IMG/VR virus record: IMGVR_UViG_2695420600_000001
Source of the DNA: a virus
Lineage: Duplodnaviria > Heunggongvirae > Uroviricota > Caudoviricetes
Strand: one strand, 5' to 3'
DNA: 9,127 nt
Position numbers and translations under genes: made by a program. Of the stretch, positions 1 through 3,876 are shown piece by piece (within the stretch, counting starts at the first letter, position 1; each line of letters starts with the position of its first letter). The notes under the pieces were generated by a model. It saw only the letters and a program-made list of their open reading frames with translations. It did no database searches and had not been told where the DNA came from.

Positions 1-44
<44 letters not shown>

Positions 45-724: not shown

Positions 725-940
725 ATGTATCAGATGGAAAAAATATCAACAGGCATTGCCTACGGCACCTCCGCCGGCAGTGCCGGCTACTGGTTTTTGC
801 AGTGGTTGGATCAGGTCAGTCCATCACAGTGGGCTGCGATTGGTGTGCTGGGAAGTCTGCTTCTGGGGCTTCTGACTTATCTGACAAATCTGTATTTCAA
901 AATAAGAGAAGACAAGCGTAAGGCTGCGAGAGGTGAATAA
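725..940 (+). CDS. Class II holin (phage 21 S-like pinholin), copy 1 with a divergent N-terminus (MYQMEK...)
   Basis: 71-aa ORF with a Gly/Ala/Ser-rich first transmembrane segment ([20 protein letters not shown]), a second hydrophobic segment and a charged C-terminal tail ([13 protein letters not shown]). From residue 10 onward it is identical to copy 2. ATG at 725 follows a G-rich stretch, and the stop overlaps an ATG at 940 (TAATG). Confidence 0.75.
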
Positions 941-983
941 TGTCGCCATCATTACGCAAGGCTGTTGCAGCTGCTATTGGTGG
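752..983 (+). repeat. Direct repeat, copy A (232 bp), covering most of the holin gene plus the first 44 nt of the endolysin
   Basis: Identical to 1164-1395 except for one mismatch (971 C versus 1383 T); offset 412 bp. Identity ends abruptly at 983/984. Confidence 0.9.
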
Positions 984-1008
984 AATTTTAGGAAGGAGTG
1001 TCCGTTAA
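940..1008 (+). pseudogene. Truncated endolysin 5' remnant (first 15 codons of the SAR endolysin, then unrelated sequence and a stop)
   Basis: Encodes [15 protein letters not shown], matching the N-terminus of the intact endolysin at 1352, then diverges at 984 and terminates at TAA 1006-1008. Confidence 0.7.
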
Positions 1009-1136
1009 ACTCAGGCTACCTCAGTGCTTTCCTTACTGTATATATCGTTTCGCCCGCTTTTGCGTTTTTTTCTTTTCAAATCCCTTTCATTTCTCAGTGT
1101 AAAACTACGCCATCCGTTATTTGCGGAGGTGAGGCT

Positions 1137-1352
1137 ATGAAATCCATGGACAAAATTTCAACGGGCATTGCCTACGGCACCTCCGCCGGCAGTGCCGGCT
1201 ACTGGTTTTTGCAGTGGTTGGATCAGGTCAGTCCATCACAGTGGGCTGCGATTGGTGTGCTGGGAAGTCTGCTTCTGGGGCTTCTGACTTATCTGACAAA
1301 TCTGTATTTCAAAATAAGAGAAGACAAGCGTAAGGCTGCGAGAGGTGAATAA
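1137..1352 (+). CDS. S: Class II holin (phage 21 S-like pinholin/antiholin with MKSM dual-start motif), copy 2
   Basis: ATG at 1137 is preceded by GGAGGTGAGG. The 71-aa product [26 protein letters not shown]... matches the phage 21 S protein as I recall it. Its stop overlaps the endolysin ATG (TAATG at 1350-1354). The ORF-track entry 933-1352 is an upstream extension from a GTG codon and is not used here. Confidence 0.9.
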
Positions 1353-1395
1353 TGTCGCCATCATTACGCAAGGCTGTTGCAGTTGCTATTGGTGG
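1164..1395 (+). repeat. Direct repeat, copy B (232 bp)
   Basis: Partner of 752-983; one mismatch. Confidence 0.9.
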
Positions 1396-1849
1396 CGGGG
1401 CTGTTGCTATAGCATCTGTGTTAATCACTGGCCCAGGTGGTAACGATGGTCTGGAAGGTGTCAGCTACATACCATACAAAGATATCATTGGTGTATGGAC
1501 TGTATGTCACGGACACACCGGAAAAGACATCATGCTCGGTAAAACGTATACCGAAGCAGAATGCAAAGCCCTCCTGAATAAAGACCTTGCCACTGTCGCC
1601 AGACAAATTAACCCGTACATCAAAGTCGATATACCGGAAACAACGCGCGGCGCTCTTTACTCGTTCGTTTACAACGTGGGCGCTGGCAATTTCAGAACAT
1701 CGACGCTTCTTCGCAAAATAAACCAGGGCTATATCAAAGGCGCATGTGACCAGCTACGTCGCTGGACATATGCTGGCGGTAAGCAATGGAAAGGGCTGAT
1801 GACCCGTCGTGAGATTGAGCGTGAAGTCTGTTTGTGGGGGAAACAATGA
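1352..1849 (+). CDS. R: SAR endolysin (phage 21 R-like lysozyme with an N-terminal signal-anchor-release domain)
   Basis: 165 aa. The N-terminus is weakly hydrophobic and Gly/Ala-rich ([20 protein letters not shown]). A lysozyme-type catalytic region follows (GLEGVSY...[16 protein letters not shown]), with Glu, Asp and Thr in the expected spacing. Start overlaps the holin stop; stop overlaps the Rz start (ATGA). Confidence 0.9.
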
Positions 1850-2316
1850 GCAGAGTAACCGCGATTATCTCCGCTCTGGTTATCTGCATCATCGTCCGCC
1901 TGTCATGGGCTGTTAATCATTACCGTGATAACGCCATTACCTACAAAGAGCAGCGCGACAAAAACGCAAGAGAACTGAAGCTGGCGAACGCAACCATTAC
2001 TGACATGCAGCAGCGCCAGCGTGATGCTGATGCACTCGATGCTAAATACACGAAGGAGTTAGCTGATGCGAAAGCTGAAAATGATGCTCTTCGGCGCAAG
2101 CTTGATAATGGTGGTCGGGTGCTCGTCAAAGGAAAATGCCCTGTGCCATCCTCAGCCGAAACCTCCAGCGCCTCCGGCATGGGCAATGATGCCACCGTCG
2201 AACTCTCTCCAGTTGCTGGACGAAACGTTCTCGGTATCCGGGACGGAATCATCAGCGACCAGACAGCATTGAGAATGCTTCAGGAGTACATCAGGATCCA
2301 ATGCCTTGGGGGGTAG
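1846..2316 (+). CDS. Rz: Rz inner-membrane spanin (i-spanin)
   Basis: [17 protein letters not shown]... N-terminal transmembrane segment followed by a coiled-coil-like region; strongly similar to lambda Rz from memory. ATG at 1846 overlaps the endolysin stop; the ORF track's 1834 start is an upstream GTG. Confidence 0.85.
2066..2272 (+). CDS. Rz1: Rz1 outer-membrane lipoprotein spanin (o-spanin), embedded in Rz in the +1 frame
   Basis: 68 aa with signal peptide and lipobox (LIMVVGC) followed by a proline-rich segment ([12 protein letters not shown]), entirely inside the Rz reading frame, which is the classic embedded arrangement. Confidence 0.8.
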
Positions 2317-2404
2317 CGGTAATTTTACTCATTATCCTTCAAATCAGATTCTGTTGTCAGAGGAATGGGGGAAGCTGGATTCGCAAGAGCTTTTTATGGG
2401 CAGT

Positions 2405-2917
2405 TTAGCTAAAAAAAGGCAACACGAAGCTAAAACTACCAACATAAAGTGCTGACCAGCTAGCAGCTGAAATCAGACTCACTGTATACACTTTCACTGG
2501 ATGAAGTTGCAACATTCCTGCCACCAAAGGAGCAATATAACGCAGCACGGCGATAAAGCGCGAAGTGAAAAGTATTGACACAGAGTTATTTTGCAACTGA
2601 AGGCGAACCCGTTCTATTGTATTGGAACGGCTTGATATTATACATGCAAGTTGAGGGATATGCCCAATTATTATACCAAGATGGTAATTAACGATAGTAC
2701 CGCACCATGCGCCACTCATGACCGTGATTCCAGCTTCCCATGGTGAAAGAGTCGTCTTGCTGACTGTAATTACAGTGGCCATCATAATTGATGCTGGTGG
2801 CAATATCGCCGAAATGAGTAAAGTGGATTTTGTGAACGCTATTATAAAAAGAAGCCCCCATAGGCGATATGGATGAAGTACAAAATAGTTCATCAAAGCA
2901 TTTATCCACTCCATCAA
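2405..2917 (-). CDS. DedA/YqaA-family integral membrane protein (putative moron)
   Basis: Minus-strand ORF of about 170 aa with several hydrophobic segments. Segments LISAILPPASIMMATVIT...LSPWEAGITVMSGAWCGTIVNYHLG and RFIAVLRYIAPLVAG resemble the conserved core of E. coli YqaA/YqjA as I recall them. The region is AT-rich compared with its neighbours and is transcribed opposite to the late operon. Start is TTG at 2917 or ATG at 2914, with AAGGA upstream. Confidence 0.6.
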   Translation of the reverse strand: MMEWINALMNYFVLHPYRLWGLLFIIAFTKSTLLISAILPPASIMMATVITVSKTTLSPWEAGITVMSGAWCGTIVNYHLGIIIGHIPQLACIISSRSNTIERVRLQLQNNSVSILFTSRFIAVLRYIAPLVAGMLQLHPVKVYTVSLISAASWSALYVGSFSFVLPFFS

Positions 2918-3000
2918 TGTCTTTCCTTCTGTGAATTTTTCTTTGCTATTTAACCGTGATACGACTTAATTTAGGCTTAAACACCTTACATTTACAAGGT

Positions 3001-3039
3001 ACTCCTGTGGGGGGCCCTGCCACGGAGCGTCGCAGGAGT
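3001..3039. other. Inverted repeat (ACTCCTG ... CAGGAGT) flanking a GC-rich 25-bp spacer, 70 bp upstream of terS
   Basis: 7-bp perfect arms at 3001-3007 and 3033-3039; spacer TGGGGGGCCCTGCCACGGAGCGTCG is locally GC-rich in an otherwise AT-rich intergenic region. Function unknown. Confidence 0.3.
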
Positions 3040-3111
3040 GAGTGATGAGGAAGAATTAAAGCAACCTATTGTGACAGGCAGCGATAACAGTAAATCACAG
3101 GAAGCATAATC

Positions 3112-3876
3112 ATGGCAAAACCGGACTGGGAGGCCATCGAATCGGCATACCGGGCCGGAGTCCTTAGCCTCCGTGATATAGGCGAGAAATACGGCGTTAC
3201 AGAAGGGGCTATCAGGAAGAGGGCCAAAAAGCTTGGTTGGGCACGCAGTGGCGGTACGCAGGTTTGCAAAAATGGTACGCAAAAAAGGAAAGTGCGTACC
3301 AGCAGAAAGCCTGCCATTACTGGCCTTACACAAAAAAGTACGCAACTAAAAACAGAATCTACACCGGATACGAAACCGATACGCGGAATGCGTACCGATC
3401 CCCCGACTAACCCATTCCAACCCGGTAACCAGCAGGCATTAAAACACGGTGGTTATGCCCGTCGCCTTCTGCTCAAAGATGAGGTGATAGAGGACGCTAA
3501 AGCGTTGACGCTCGAGGACGAATTATTTCGCCTTCGTGCTAACAACCTTGTCGCTGCAGAGAATATTGGTCGGTGGTTGGTGTCGCTGGAAGATGCTAAT
3601 GGGGACCAGGAAAGGAAGATGCTGATTGAAAATATCAGCGCCGCCGAGAAAGCAATGATGCGCAATACAGTTCGTATTGAGTCCATCGTTGGCACGCTTG
3701 CGACGGTAGGAAAAATATTTGCTGATACAGCCTACCGCAAGGCCGCCACTGATAAGGTGTCTCTGGAGGCTGATCGTCTTCGCCGTGATGCAGGTATTGA
3801 TGATGGCAATGGAGAGCGTGACCTCAATGACTTCTACTCTGACATCCAAACCGACGCTGAATCCGGCTTTACGTAG
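3112..3876 (+). CDS. Terminase small subunit (TerS) with an N-terminal helix-turn-helix
   Basis: 254 aa. The N-terminus (LSLRDIGEKYGVTEGAIRKRAKKLGW) looks like a helix-turn-helix DNA-binding motif, followed by a basic linker; it sits immediately upstream of terL. ATG at 3112 is preceded by AGGAAG. Confidence 0.7.
   Translation: MAKPDWEAIESAYRAGVLSLRDIGEKYGVTEGAIRKRAKKLGWARSGGTQVCKNGTQKRKVRTSRKPAITGLTQKSTQLKTESTPDTKPIRGMRTDPPTNPFQPGNQQALKHGGYARRLLLKDEVIEDAKALTLEDELFRLRANNLVAAENIGRWLVSLEDANGDQERKMLIENISAAEKAMMRNTVRIESIVGTLATVGKIFADTAYRKAATDKVSLEADRLRRDAGIDDGNGERDLNDFYSDIQTDAESGFT
3253..3396. repeat. Cluster of GGTACGCA octamers in both orientations inside terS; candidate pac site
   Basis: Perfect GGTACGCA at 3253-3260 (+) and 3274-3281 (+); reverse complement TGCGTACC at 3293-3300 and 3389-3396; 7/8 match AGTACGCA at 3337-3344. 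A-tracts flank several copies. Confidence 0.45.

What the first reader, a model, noticed from the sequence alone, without database searches (positions are those of the whole stretch)
2317..3000. Opposite-strand, AT-rich DedA/YqaA-like membrane protein inserted between lysis and packaging modules
The gene is transcribed against the late operon, has lower GC than its neighbours, and occupies the slot where lambdoid phages commonly carry lysogenic-conversion morons (bor in lambda). DedA-family proteins have been linked to envelope homeostasis, proton-motive-force-dependent processes and, in recent work, undecaprenyl-phosphate recycling. A prophage-borne copy could alter the host envelope, for example affecting phage exclusion, antimicrobial peptide tolerance or polymyxin tolerance. 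The family assignment rests on recalled similarity to E. coli YqaA/YqjA and needs confirmation.
Basis: partly seen in the sequence, partly recalled or inferred. Interest (0 to 1): 0.55.

Follow-up and report, generated by a model that had tools for sequence, protein, structure and literature searches.

The report
Prophage-borne divergent DedA membrane gene
A small inner-membrane protein gene of the DedA lipid-transporter family has been inserted, with its own control region, between the lysis and DNA-packaging genes of an E. coli/Shigella prophage. It belongs to an unstudied branch of the family that has lost the two acidic residues thought to drive transport.

Summary
A 170-aa ORF (2405-2917, minus strand) lies between Rz/Rz1 and the small terminase gene, at the GC minimum of the window (41.7% vs 50.3%).

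It is a DedA/VTT protein (Pfam PF09335, 52.4 bits, cutoff 33.9), and RefSeq already names it so. It is not YqaA-like. Its nearest K-12 paralogues are YabI, DedA and YqjA, at about 24% identity.

It belongs to a narrow clade of short DedAs restricted to Enterobacterales. In this clade the essential acidic pair E39/D51 of YqjA/YghB is replaced by Lys30/Ala42, while the arginine pair (R120/R126) is kept.

Moron status is well supported:
- Sibling prophages sharing either flank lack the gene.
- Three unrelated phage backbones carry it in the same slot and orientation.
- About 75 nt of 5' sequence travels with it.
- Omega on the window lineage is about 0.23.
- It stays intact in a decayed Shigella prophage.

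The travelling 5' region matches a PhoP-type promoter layout (direct repeat, 12 nt, TTAAAT). Chromosomal orthologues sit beside Mg2+ channel genes, and Enterobacter copies carry a perfect PhoP box.

The function is inferred, not shown: a proton-uncoupled envelope-lipid transporter expressed from the prophage, possibly under low Mg2+.

The parts
2405..2917 (-). ORF for a 170-aa DedA/VTT-domain inner-membrane protein (RefSeq WP_011069285.1, 'DedA family protein'). TTG start at 2917; an alternative ATG at 2914.
2828..2830 (-). Codon for Lys30. It aligns with the essential Glu39 of YqjA/YghB. It is Lys in 43/43 aligned clade members and Glu in 16/16 outgroup DedAs.
2792..2794 (-). Codon for Ala42, aligned with Asp51 of YqjA/YghB (LPPAS in place of LPGDS). 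The adjacent Ser43 aligns with Ser52 and is kept.
2540..2560 (-). Codons for Arg120 to Arg126 (LFTSRFIAVLRY). They align with the arginines R130/R136 at the tip of the second re-entrant helix, and both are retained.
2967..2983 (-). Direct repeat TGTTTA-AGCCT-AAATTA. It occupies the position of the PhoP-box-like repeat conserved in orthologues. It scores 9/12 against the PhoP box and carries a 1-nt insertion relative to the other copies. The overlapping TTTAAG-CCTAA-ATTAAG (2981-2965) scores 11/12 against a PmrA-type repeat recalled from memory.
2948..2953 (-). -10-like hexamer TTAAAT, conserved in orthologues 12 nt downstream of the repeat (13 nt here).
2924..2928 (-). Shine-Dalgarno AAGGA.
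2393..2990 (-). Approximate extent of the mobile cassette, defined as nucleotide homology with the copies in two other phage backbones. It covers about 75 nt of 5' region, the ORF and about 12 nt after the stop codon.
1846..2316 (+). Left flank: Rz-type spanin ('lysis protein'), the last gene of the lysis cassette. Rz1, with a lipobox, is embedded at 2066-2272.
3112..3876 (+). Right flank: the first packaging gene, a putative small terminase. Homology with DedA-less sibling prophages begins at 3110.

Best explanation
The locus is a roughly 600-bp moron, a self-contained transcription unit acquired horizontally and carried in the lysis/packaging junction of a lambdoid-type prophage, transcribed against the late operon.

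It encodes a minimal (170 aa) inner-membrane protein of the DedA superfamily. The protein belongs to a distinct Enterobacterales-only clade that branches nearest the YabI/YqjA (COG0586) group. That clade keeps the two arginines at the tip of re-entrant helix 2, which are thought to bind the lipid phosphate. It has replaced the two acidic residues of re-entrant helix 1, thought to couple transport to protons, with Lys and Ala. It also lacks the C-terminal helix of the 219-aa DedAs.

Inferred mechanism: the protein still binds an anionic lipid head group (a polyprenyl phosphate or pyrophosphate, or an anionic phospholipid). It moves or scrambles that lipid across the inner membrane without proton coupling, which alters envelope lipid-carrier or phospholipid homeostasis in the lysogen.

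Inferred regulation: the cassette brings a response-regulator-type promoter laid out like PhoP 'architecture I'. The ancestral gene belongs to a low-Mg2+ (PhoPQ) envelope-remodelling context, as it lies next to the Mg2+ channel genes mgtE or corA.

What is shown: family membership, the residue changes, mobility, purifying selection, the conserved promoter-like module and the gene neighbourhoods. What is inferred: substrate, direction of transport, expression in the lysogen, PhoP control and any benefit to host or phage.
For: Family:
- Pfam VTT_dom scores 52.4 bits against a cutoff of 33.9. hhalign to YqjA gives 97.4% probability.
- The best K-12 paralogues are YabI, DedA and YqjA.

Clade definition:
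- Only 15 representatives reach E<=1e-10 among 1.84 billion proteins.
- All 70 genomic loci are from Enterobacterales.
- The K-S-T...LPPAS motif is present in 43/43 members, against Glu in 16/16 outgroup sequences. R120 and R126 are invariant. The protein has no Asp and no conserved Glu.

Role of those residues: Todor et al. and the 2026 YqjA preprint.

Moron status:
- Absent from prophages sharing the head module (L019) or the lysis module (L020).
- Present in the same slot and orientation in three different backbones: PBSX-type terL here, lambda-like GpA in Citrobacter youngae, and Terminase_6 in a Logan contig.
- The three phage copies cluster together in an NJ tree.
- Homology is limited to about 75 nt upstream plus the ORF plus about 12 nt downstream.
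- GC is at the window minimum.

Selection:
- dN/dS is 0.24 pairwise and about 0.22-0.24 on the window branch.
- The gene is intact in a Shigella flexneri prophage that has IS2 in terL and has lost its lysozyme.
- The identical protein occurs on at least 1000 contigs.

Regulation and context:
- The module [K/C]GTT[G/T]A-N5-NATT[T/G]A, then 12 nt, then TTAAAT is found in 32/36 upstream regions, against 0.8% of background windows.
- This matches PhoP architecture I as described in PMC3335776.
- Enterobacter copies carry an additional perfect PhoP box: 12/12 in 22 loci, with a variable spacer and invariant half-sites.
- mgtE is adjacent in Enterobacter, Lelliottia, Huaxiibacter and Arsenophonus and lies nearby in Hafnia. 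corA is adjacent in all 8 Morganella loci.
- Published work links DedA proteins to divalent cations (PMC10846249).
Against: - There is no expression or functional data of any kind.
- In this window the promoter repeat is degenerate: 9/12 to the PhoP box, a score reached by about 19% of random 160-nt windows. It has a 1-nt insertion that puts it 13 nt from TTAAAT.
- The generic sigma-70 and terminator scan found no promoter between the ORF and terS and no terminator downstream of the ORF.
- The Shigella flexneri PhoPQ regulon paper mentions no DedA or phage gene in its text or supplements.
- The phage, Citrobacter and Kosakonia sub-lineage has lost the Mg2+-channel neighbourhood.
- Alanine substitutions of E39 and D51 abolish YqjA function. 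A natural K/A variant could therefore have a quite different activity, or act only as a partner or inhibitor of other DedAs.
- The AlphaFold model is only moderately confident (pLDDT 75.8, with the re-entrant helix 1 tip below 50). No solved DedA structure exists for comparison.
Confidence: 0.4

Rival explanations
1. It is an ordinary PMF-driven undecaprenyl-phosphate flippase (UptA/YghB-type) that simply adds Und-P recycling capacity to the lysogen.
For: Its nearest relatives are COG0586-type DedAs. The arginine pair thought to bind the Und-P phosphate is conserved. Distant hits include DedA-PAP2 fusion proteins. COG0586 is proposed to be the Und-P flippase subfamily.
Against: Both acidic residues tied to proton coupling, which are essential in YqjA/YghB, are replaced by K30 and A42 throughout the clade. 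Scores against the UptA equivalog models are 19.5 and 16 bits, against cutoffs of 250 and 300. Identity to any characterised DedA is at most 25%.
Confidence: 0.15
2. It acts in Mg2+/divalent-cation homeostasis, directly or as an accessory to a channel, rather than as a lipid transporter.
For: Chromosomal orthologues are adjacent to two non-homologous Mg2+ channel families, MgtE and CorA, in several genera. Enterobacter has a perfect PhoP box in the mgtE-dedA intergenic region. DedA mutants are rescued by Mg2+ or Ca2+, and a Xanthomonas DedA has been implicated in Mg2+ uptake.
Against: The phage-borne lineage carries no channel gene with it. In Morganella corA sits between uvrD and a rarD-like EamA gene, which from memory is its usual place in enterobacterial chromosomes, so that adjacency may be incidental. 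A protein with no conserved acidic residue is an unlikely cation binder.
Confidence: 0.15
3. It serves the phage rather than the host: a superinfection-exclusion factor, or a modulator of lysis timing that acts through membrane energetics next to the holin/spanin genes.
For: In three phage backbones it lies immediately downstream of, and convergent with, the spanin gene. Inner-membrane prophage proteins often mediate exclusion (general knowledge, not tested here).
Against: It is on the opposite strand with its own upstream module, so it is not part of the late transcript. Close orthologues are ordinary chromosomal genes, including in 0.84-0.93 Mb Arsenophonus endosymbiont genomes. It has no PADLOC match. 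It is retained in a Shigella prophage that can no longer lyse or package.
Confidence: 0.12
4. It is a neutral passenger: a hitch-hiking gene with no current function in E. coli or Shigella, slowly decaying.
For: The window copy has the longest branch and the lowest GC of its sub-lineage. Its promoter repeat carries a 1-nt insertion. Only 6 of 5426 complete E. coli genomes carry it.
Against: Omega on the window branch is about 0.23, with dS about 0.4, so there has been long-term purifying selection. All clade-invariant residues are retained. The ORF is intact on at least 1000 contigs, including in degraded prophages.
Confidence: 0.13

Closest known systems
E. coli YabI / DedA / YqjA / YghB (COG0586-type DedA proteins; proposed Und-P flippases)
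   Same: VTT/DedA domain. The alignment is collinear over residues 19-160. The LP motif of re-entrant helix 1, Ser43 (= Ser52), both arginines (R120/R126 = R130/R136) and the G/P landmarks are conserved.
   Different: Only 22-25% identical. It is 170 aa rather than 219-254 and lacks the C-terminal helix. Glu39 is replaced by Lys and Asp51 by Ala. It falls far below the NCBIfam equivalog cutoffs.
   Same: A short, single-domain member of the DedA superfamily (142 aa).
   Different: Barely detectable similarity (E ~5e-3 against eight sequences). COG1238 keeps the acidic residues and lacks the arginines, the opposite pattern to this protein.
Bacteriophage lambda bor (moron between Rz and cos, opposite strand)
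   Same: Same genomic slot and the same antiparallel orientation relative to the late operon. Different base composition from its surroundings. Presence/absence polymorphism among related phages. The position and orientation of bor are from general knowledge.
   Different: Bor is an unrelated outer-membrane lipoprotein. Here the cargo is a polytopic inner-membrane DedA protein. Expression in the lysogen has not been shown.
PhoP-activated 'architecture I' promoters (mgtA, phoP, slyB, pmrD)
   Same: A direct hexamer repeat with an 11-bp period sits 12 nt upstream of a -10-like hexamer. The layout is conserved in 32/36 orthologue upstream regions, and Enterobacter adds a perfect upstream box, resembling architecture II.
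   Different: The proximal half-sites read GTTGA/ATTKA rather than GTTTA. The window copy scores 9/12 and has 13-nt spacing. No binding or regulation data exist.
PHROG 33251 (phage DedA-like proteins, function unknown) and giant-virus 'SNARE-associated' proteins
   Same: They show that DedA-fold genes do occur in viral genomes.
   Different: The matches are weak (E 4e-7 to the PHROG; Foldseek hits not significant). None is characterised, and none is from this clade.

Membership tests
DedA superfamily (Pfam PF09335, VTT domain) | Profile match above the curated gathering threshold over most of the domain | tested here: met
   E 9.3e-14; 52.4 bits against a cutoff of 33.9; profile positions 3-121 of 123. 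hhalign to YqjA gives probability 97.4%.
DedA superfamily (Pfam PF09335, VTT domain) | Core fold with two re-entrant helical hairpins plus transmembrane helices | tested here: inconclusive
   The AF2 model (pLDDT 75.8, pTM 0.72) shows helix-break-helix elements at 16-53 and 112-135 and long helices at 59-86 and 140-169. No solved DedA structure is available for comparison, so the PDB and BFVD searches were not significant.
COG0586 DedA subfamily (YghB/YqjA/UptA; Und-P flippases) | Closest sequence affinity to COG0586 members | tested here: met
   phmmer E-values: YabI 2e-13, DedA 6e-11, YqjA 1e-9, YohD 8e-7, YghB 1e-5, against YqaA 5e-3 and no significant hit to YdjX/YdjZ.
COG0586 DedA subfamily (YghB/YqjA/UptA; Und-P flippases) | [quoted passage not shown] | tested here: not met
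   K30 and A42 occupy these positions in three independent alignments. Lys is present in 43/43 clade members.
COG0586 DedA subfamily (YghB/YqjA/UptA; Und-P flippases) | [quoted passage not shown] | tested here: met
   R120 is present in 60/61 aligned sequences and R126 in 61/61.
COG0586 DedA subfamily (YghB/YqjA/UptA; Und-P flippases) | Score above the NCBIfam equivalog cutoffs (PRK10847, UptA) | tested here: not met
   30.7 bits against 236; 19.5 against 250; 16 against 300.
COG0586 DedA subfamily (YghB/YqjA/UptA; Und-P flippases) | Und-P flipping activity, or complementation of DedA-deficient strains | not testable with these tools
   Requires genetics or biochemistry.
COG1238 DedA subfamily (YqaA-like) | Sequence affinity to YqaA; acidic re-entrant helix 1 and an arginine-poor re-entrant helix 2 | tested here: not met
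   YqaA scores E ~5e-3 in an 8-sequence database. The residue pattern is the reverse of that described for COG1238.
Phage moron / lysogenic-conversion cassette | Present or absent among otherwise syntenic phages, and found in unrelated phage backbones | tested here: met
   Absent in L019 and L020. Present in three backbones in the same slot and orientation. Carried by 6 of 5426 complete E. coli genomes.
Phage moron / lysogenic-conversion cassette | Base composition distinct from the surrounding phage genes | tested here: met
   41.7% against 49-54%; it is the GC minimum of the window.
Phage moron / lysogenic-conversion cassette | Own promoter and terminator (an autonomous transcription unit) | tested here: inconclusive
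   A conserved promoter-like module travels with the gene. The generic sigma-70 and terminator scan found no promoter upstream and no terminator downstream of the ORF. The ancestral terminator visible in Kosakonia is lost in the phage copies.
Phage moron / lysogenic-conversion cassette | Expressed from the repressed prophage and changes the host phenotype | not testable with these tools
   No transcriptome or phenotype data were found.
PhoP regulon promoter (architecture I/II) | Direct repeat (T/G)GTTTA-N5-(T/G)GTTTA oriented toward the gene | tested here: inconclusive
   Window 9/12, phage B and C 10/12. Enterobacter upstream box 12/12 in 22 loci and 11/12 in 2. Background frequencies per 160 nt: 12/12 about 0.001; >=10/12 about 0.03; >=9/12 about 0.19.
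PhoP regulon promoter (architecture I/II) | Box located about 12 nt upstream of the -10 hexamer | tested here: inconclusive
   Exactly 12 nt to TTAAAT in phage B, phage C, the Citrobacter copies and most Enterobacter copies, but 13 nt in the window because of a 1-nt insertion. The reference architecture is from PMC3335776.
PhoP regulon promoter (architecture I/II) | PhoP-P binding and phoP-dependent, low-Mg2+-induced transcription | not testable with these tools
   The Shigella flexneri PhoPQ study lists no such gene.

The most novel reading that the evidence does not exclude
A phage-mobilised DedA lipid transporter that lacks proton coupling. In it, the essential Glu of re-entrant helix 1 has become Lys, creating a three-fold cationic site together with R120 and R126. 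It is switched on by PhoPQ in low-Mg2+, host-like conditions and acts as a lysogenic-conversion factor in Shigella and E. coli, changing lipid-carrier or anionic-lipid distribution and hence polymyxin or antimicrobial-peptide tolerance, surface-glycan assembly or phage susceptibility. This would define a fourth functional type of bacterial DedA and the first DedA moron.
Probability: 0.2. Interest if true: 0.7.

Novelty: new variant of a known kind. Interest (0 to 1): 0.5.

Why it matters
DedA proteins have recently become prominent as Und-P and phospholipid flippases and as determinants of colistin resistance. The current model rests on an acidic pair (proton coupling) and an arginine pair (phosphate binding).

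This clade is a natural variant in which the acidic pair is gone and one position carries the opposite charge, yet the protein is under purifying selection. It is even retained in 0.84-0.93 Mb endosymbiont genomes. It therefore offers a direct test of the coupling model.

The gene is also horizontally mobile on temperate phages of Shigella, E. coli and Citrobacter, and appears to carry a stress-responsive promoter with it. If it alters envelope physiology, it would be a transmissible envelope or antibiotic-tolerance trait.

If no phenotype is found, it remains an ordinary, already-annotated accessory membrane gene.

Tried and rejected
Structure:
- AlphaFold with a 17-sequence alignment gave a poor model (pLDDT 55.9). 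A 61-sequence alignment improved it to 75.8.
- Foldseek against the PDB and BFVD gave nothing significant, because no DedA structure has been solved. The AFDB library was unavailable.

Signals and databases:
- The generic sigma-70/terminator scan found no promoter between the ORF and terS and no terminator after the ORF.
- Rfam found only the truncated tRNA at the window start. ARAGORN found nothing.
- PADLOC gave no defence-system match.
- A megablast of window 2250-3150 (the gene plus its flanks) against INPHARED phages matched only the first ~45 nt of terS at the right edge. tblastn found only relatives at 30% identity or less, mostly host fragments.

Literature:
- No paper links DedA with morons or prophages of this type. 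There is no hit for WP_011069285. The Shigella PhoPQ regulon paper and its supplements do not mention the gene.

Contexts set aside:
- A 'plasmid' copy in C. freundii is really a chromosomal fragment (icd, purB, phoPQ) with a prophage remnant, not a plasmid-borne gene.
- An IMG/VR copy at 73% identity (L118) lies just outside the left end of a Mu-like prophage. It is probably flanking host DNA, so it was not counted as a fourth phage backbone.

Readings rejected:
- YqaA-like assignment.
- Degraded fragment.
- Part of the late operon (wrong strand).

The PmrA-type reading of the window repeat (11/12) rests on a consensus recalled from memory and is not conserved in the other copies, so it is reported only as an observation.
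Full report
**1. Observation**

The window contains a 513-nt ORF on the minus strand (2405-2917), encoding 170 aa. It starts at a TTG that is followed immediately by an ATG, and is preceded by AAGGA.

It lies between the end of a plus-strand lysis cassette and the first packaging genes.
- Lysis cassette: class II holin, RrrD lysozyme, Rz at 1846-2316 with an embedded Rz1 lipoprotein at 2066-2272.
- Packaging genes: a 254-aa putative small terminase at 3112-3876, then a PBSX-type large terminase, a DUF1073 portal and a head-morphogenesis protein.

Its GC content is 41.7%, against 50.3% for the window and 49-54% for its neighbours. The lowest-GC 513-nt stretch of the window lies inside it.

**2. 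Family**

Pfam assigns the protein to the VTT/DedA domain, PF09335. The match has E 9.3e-14 and 52.4 bits against a gathering score of 33.9, and covers 119 of 123 profile positions. RefSeq already annotates the identical protein (WP_011069285.1) as 'DedA family protein'. The exact sequence is on at least 1000 contigs of Shigella and E. coli.

It is not close to any named DedA.
- NCBIfam equivalog models score far below their cutoffs: 30.7 against 236 for PRK10847, and 19.5 against 250 for UptA.
- Against the eight K-12 paralogues, the order is YabI (24.6% identity), DedA, YqjA, YohD, YghB. YqaA is barely detectable and YdjX/YdjZ are not detected.

YqaA represents a different subfamily, COG1238.

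**3. A distinct clade with altered key residues**

An exhaustive HMMER search of 1.84 billion representatives found only 15 proteins at E<=1e-10. A scan of one genome per species found 70 loci, all from Enterobacterales. The taxa were:
- Shigella/E. coli, Citrobacter and Kosakonia;
- many named Enterobacter species, Lelliottia and Huaxiibacter;
- Morganella and Proteus myxofaciens;
- Arsenophonus, including endosymbionts with 0.84-0.93 Mb genomes.

A profile search added Hafnia.

Members are 165-180 aa and end right after the conserved core. They lack the C-terminal helix of the 219-aa DedAs.

Three independent alignments (two MAFFT, one hhalign) place Lys30 at the position of Glu39 of YqjA/YghB. 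They place Ala42 at Asp51, Ser43 at Ser52, and Arg120/Arg126 at Arg130/Arg136.
- Lys is present in all 43 aligned clade members, and Glu in all 16 outgroup DedAs.
- The window protein has no Asp and only three non-conserved Glu residues.

Published work bears on these residues. E39 and D51 sit at the tip of re-entrant helix 1, are thought to bind protons, and are needed for function. R130 and R136 sit at the tip of re-entrant helix 2 and are thought to bind the phosphate of undecaprenyl phosphate. S52 is also functionally important (Todor, Herrera and Gross; 2026 YqjA preprint).

This clade therefore combines a retained phosphate-binding half with a lost, charge-reversed proton-coupling half. 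That pattern does not fit any of the three described subfamilies.

An AlphaFold model built on 61 sequences (pLDDT 75.8, pTM 0.72) shows the expected helix-break-helix elements at 16-53 and 112-135. No solved DedA structure exists, so fold searches were uninformative.

**4. A mobile moron**

Only 6 of 5426 complete E. coli genomes carry the gene.
- Prophages with the same packaging and head module start their homology at window position 3110. They have just a 58-nt gap after their own lysis genes (L019).
- Prophages with the same tRNA, holin, RrrD and Rz module carry a different plus-strand gene in the slot (L020).

Conversely, homologues at 75-78% identity sit in the same slot, convergent with the spanin gene and antiparallel to the late genes, in two quite different phages.
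- A Citrobacter youngae prophage with a GH19 endolysin and lambda-like DUF1441/GpA terminase.
- A metagenomic phage with Phage_lysozyme/DUF2514 and Terminase_2/Terminase_6.

The three phage copies cluster together in an NJ tree. They are sister to chromosomal or remnant copies in Kosakonia and Citrobacter.

Nucleotide homology between the phage copies is confined to about 75 nt upstream, the ORF, and about 12 nt downstream, roughly window 2393-2990.

The gene is under purifying selection. Pairwise dN/dS is 0.24. The three-point estimate for the window branch is about 0.22-0.24, with dS about 0.4. That is somewhat more relaxed than the 0.10-0.19 seen between chromosomal copies.

In Shigella flexneri the host prophage is degraded: IS2 interrupts terL, and the lysozyme and part of Rz are lost through rearrangement. 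The DedA cassette is nonetheless intact.

From general knowledge, lambda carries bor in this slot and in this orientation.

**5. Regulation and ancestral context**

A generic sigma-70 scan found no promoter upstream of the gene. Comparative analysis did better. In 32 of 36 upstream regions there is a conserved module 62-84 nt before the start codon (62-70 nt in all but one locus). Its layout is [K/C]GTT[G/T]A-N5-NATT[T/G]A, then 12 nt of unconserved sequence, then TTAAAT. The module occurs in 0.8% of random 130-nt windows.

This is the layout of PhoP-activated 'architecture I' promoters: a direct PhoP box 12 nt upstream of the -10 hexamer (PMC3335776).
- The two other phage copies read TGTTTA-GGCTC-GATTGA, a 10/12 match to the PhoP consensus.
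- Enterobacter species carry in addition a perfect PhoP box, TGTTTA-N5-KGTTTA. It scores 12/12 in 22 loci. The half-sites are invariant while the spacer varies.
- That box lies about 20 nt further upstream, in the divergent intergenic region shared with mgtE. It resembles architecture II.

The chromosomal orthologues are also linked to Mg2+ channel genes.
- mgtE is immediately adjacent in Enterobacter, Lelliottia, Huaxiibacter and the Arsenophonus nasoniae group.
- mgtE is 2.6 kb away in Hafnia.
- corA is adjacent in all eight Morganella loci.

DedA mutants are known to be rescued by Mg2+ or Ca2+ (PMC10846249).

Several caveats apply.
- In the window itself a 1-nt insertion degrades the repeat to TGTTTA-AGCCT-AAATTA. 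That is 9/12, a score common by chance, and it moves the repeat to 13 nt from TTAAAT.
- The overlapping TTTAAG-N5-ATTAAG resembles a PmrA-type repeat, but that consensus is from memory and the match is not conserved elsewhere.
- The Shigella PhoPQ regulon study does not list the gene.

**6. Interpretation**

Firmly established:
- It is a DedA-superfamily inner-membrane protein of a distinct clade.
- It is carried as a horizontally mobile cassette in the moron slot of several temperate phages.
- It is under purifying selection.
- A conserved response-regulator-type promoter module travels with it.

Most likely but inferred:
- It still binds an anionic lipid head group through R120/R126, now joined by K30.
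- It moves or scrambles that lipid across the inner membrane without proton coupling.
- It thereby modifies envelope lipid-carrier or phospholipid homeostasis in the lysogen, ancestrally as part of the low-Mg2+ (PhoPQ) response.

Rival readings are scored separately: a canonical Und-P flippase, a direct Mg2+ role, a phage-serving exclusion or lysis function, and a neutral passenger. None is excluded.

**7. Novelty and score**

The family assignment is already in public annotation, and no function is demonstrated, which limits the score. I found no description, in the literature I could search, of three things:
- the charge-reversed re-entrant helix 1 shared by a whole clade;
- the clade's mobilisation by at least three phage lineages;
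- its PhoP-box and Mg2+-channel context.

I rate it a new variant of a known kind, with interest 0.5.

Noticed in passing
window 725-1395: There are two holin ORFs (725-940 and 1137-1352). Positions 734-983 and 1146-1395 are 98.4% identical direct repeats flanking a 162-nt insert (984-1145). Positions 1023-1155 (most of the insert plus the start of the second holin copy) match the upstream region and start of the holin gene of another lambdoid prophage in the same genomes. FDAARGOS_944 has a single copy. This is either inter-prophage recombination giving a tandem hybrid duplication or an assembly artefact.
   Followed up: partly
window 1-41: This is the 3' part of a tRNA gene, cut by the window edge. 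In the matching genome it is the last (tRNA-Gly) of a four-gene phage tRNA array (Ile, Arg, Thr, Gly) upstream of the lysis cassette.
   Followed up: partly
window 2066-2272 (+): An Rz1-type o-spanin ORF is embedded out of frame inside Rz. It has a lipobox (LIMVVGC) and a proline-rich tail. RefSeq does not annotate it in the matching genome.
   Followed up: no
L021 (Shigella flexneri SFBU1023), corresponding to window 815-2070 and ~4490: The Shigella copy of this prophage is defective. A 1.3-kb insertion (IS2 in related E. coli records) splits terL. The segment with the lysozyme and the 5' part of Rz is missing, and the upstream piece is inverted. The DedA cassette and terS are untouched.
   Followed up: partly
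L029-L057 (Enterobacter, Huaxiibacter, Lelliottia), about 100 nt upstream of the DedA start: A perfect PhoP box, TGTTTA-N5-KGTTTA, is conserved across Enterobacter species in the divergent mgtE-dedA intergenic region. Its half-sites are invariant and its spacer varies. This predicts an undescribed PhoP-regulated pair consisting of a short MgtE (333 aa) and a short DedA.
   Followed up: partly
L071-L083, L100 (Morganella): The orthologue sits between an EamA (rarD-like) gene and corA, about 10 nt from corA and convergent with it. From memory, E. coli has yigF/yigG at this position.
   Followed up: no
L099 (NZ_CP056259.1, C. freundii 'plasmid' pRHBSTW-00902_4): This 82-kb record, typed as a non-mobilizable plasmid, carries chromosomal housekeeping genes (icd, purB, mnmA, phoPQ). 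It also carries a prophage remnant (Ail/Lom, ars genes, DinI and the DedA homologue) abutting icd. It is probably a chromosomal fragment rather than a plasmid.
   Followed up: no
L118 (IMGVR_UViG_2847583173_000003): A 73%-identical copy lies just outside the left end (repressor, MuA, MuB) of a Mu-like prophage. It is next to SRAP, SMEK and DarT/Macro (DarTG-like) genes, so it is probably flanking host or defence-island DNA included in the viral contig call.
   Followed up: partly
L102 and L065, L079, L084-L087 (Arsenophonus endosymbionts): The short K-S-T/LPPAS DedA is retained in endosymbiont genomes of only 0.84-0.93 Mb. That suggests a housekeeping role there. Whether it is the only DedA left in those genomes was not checked.
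   Followed up: no
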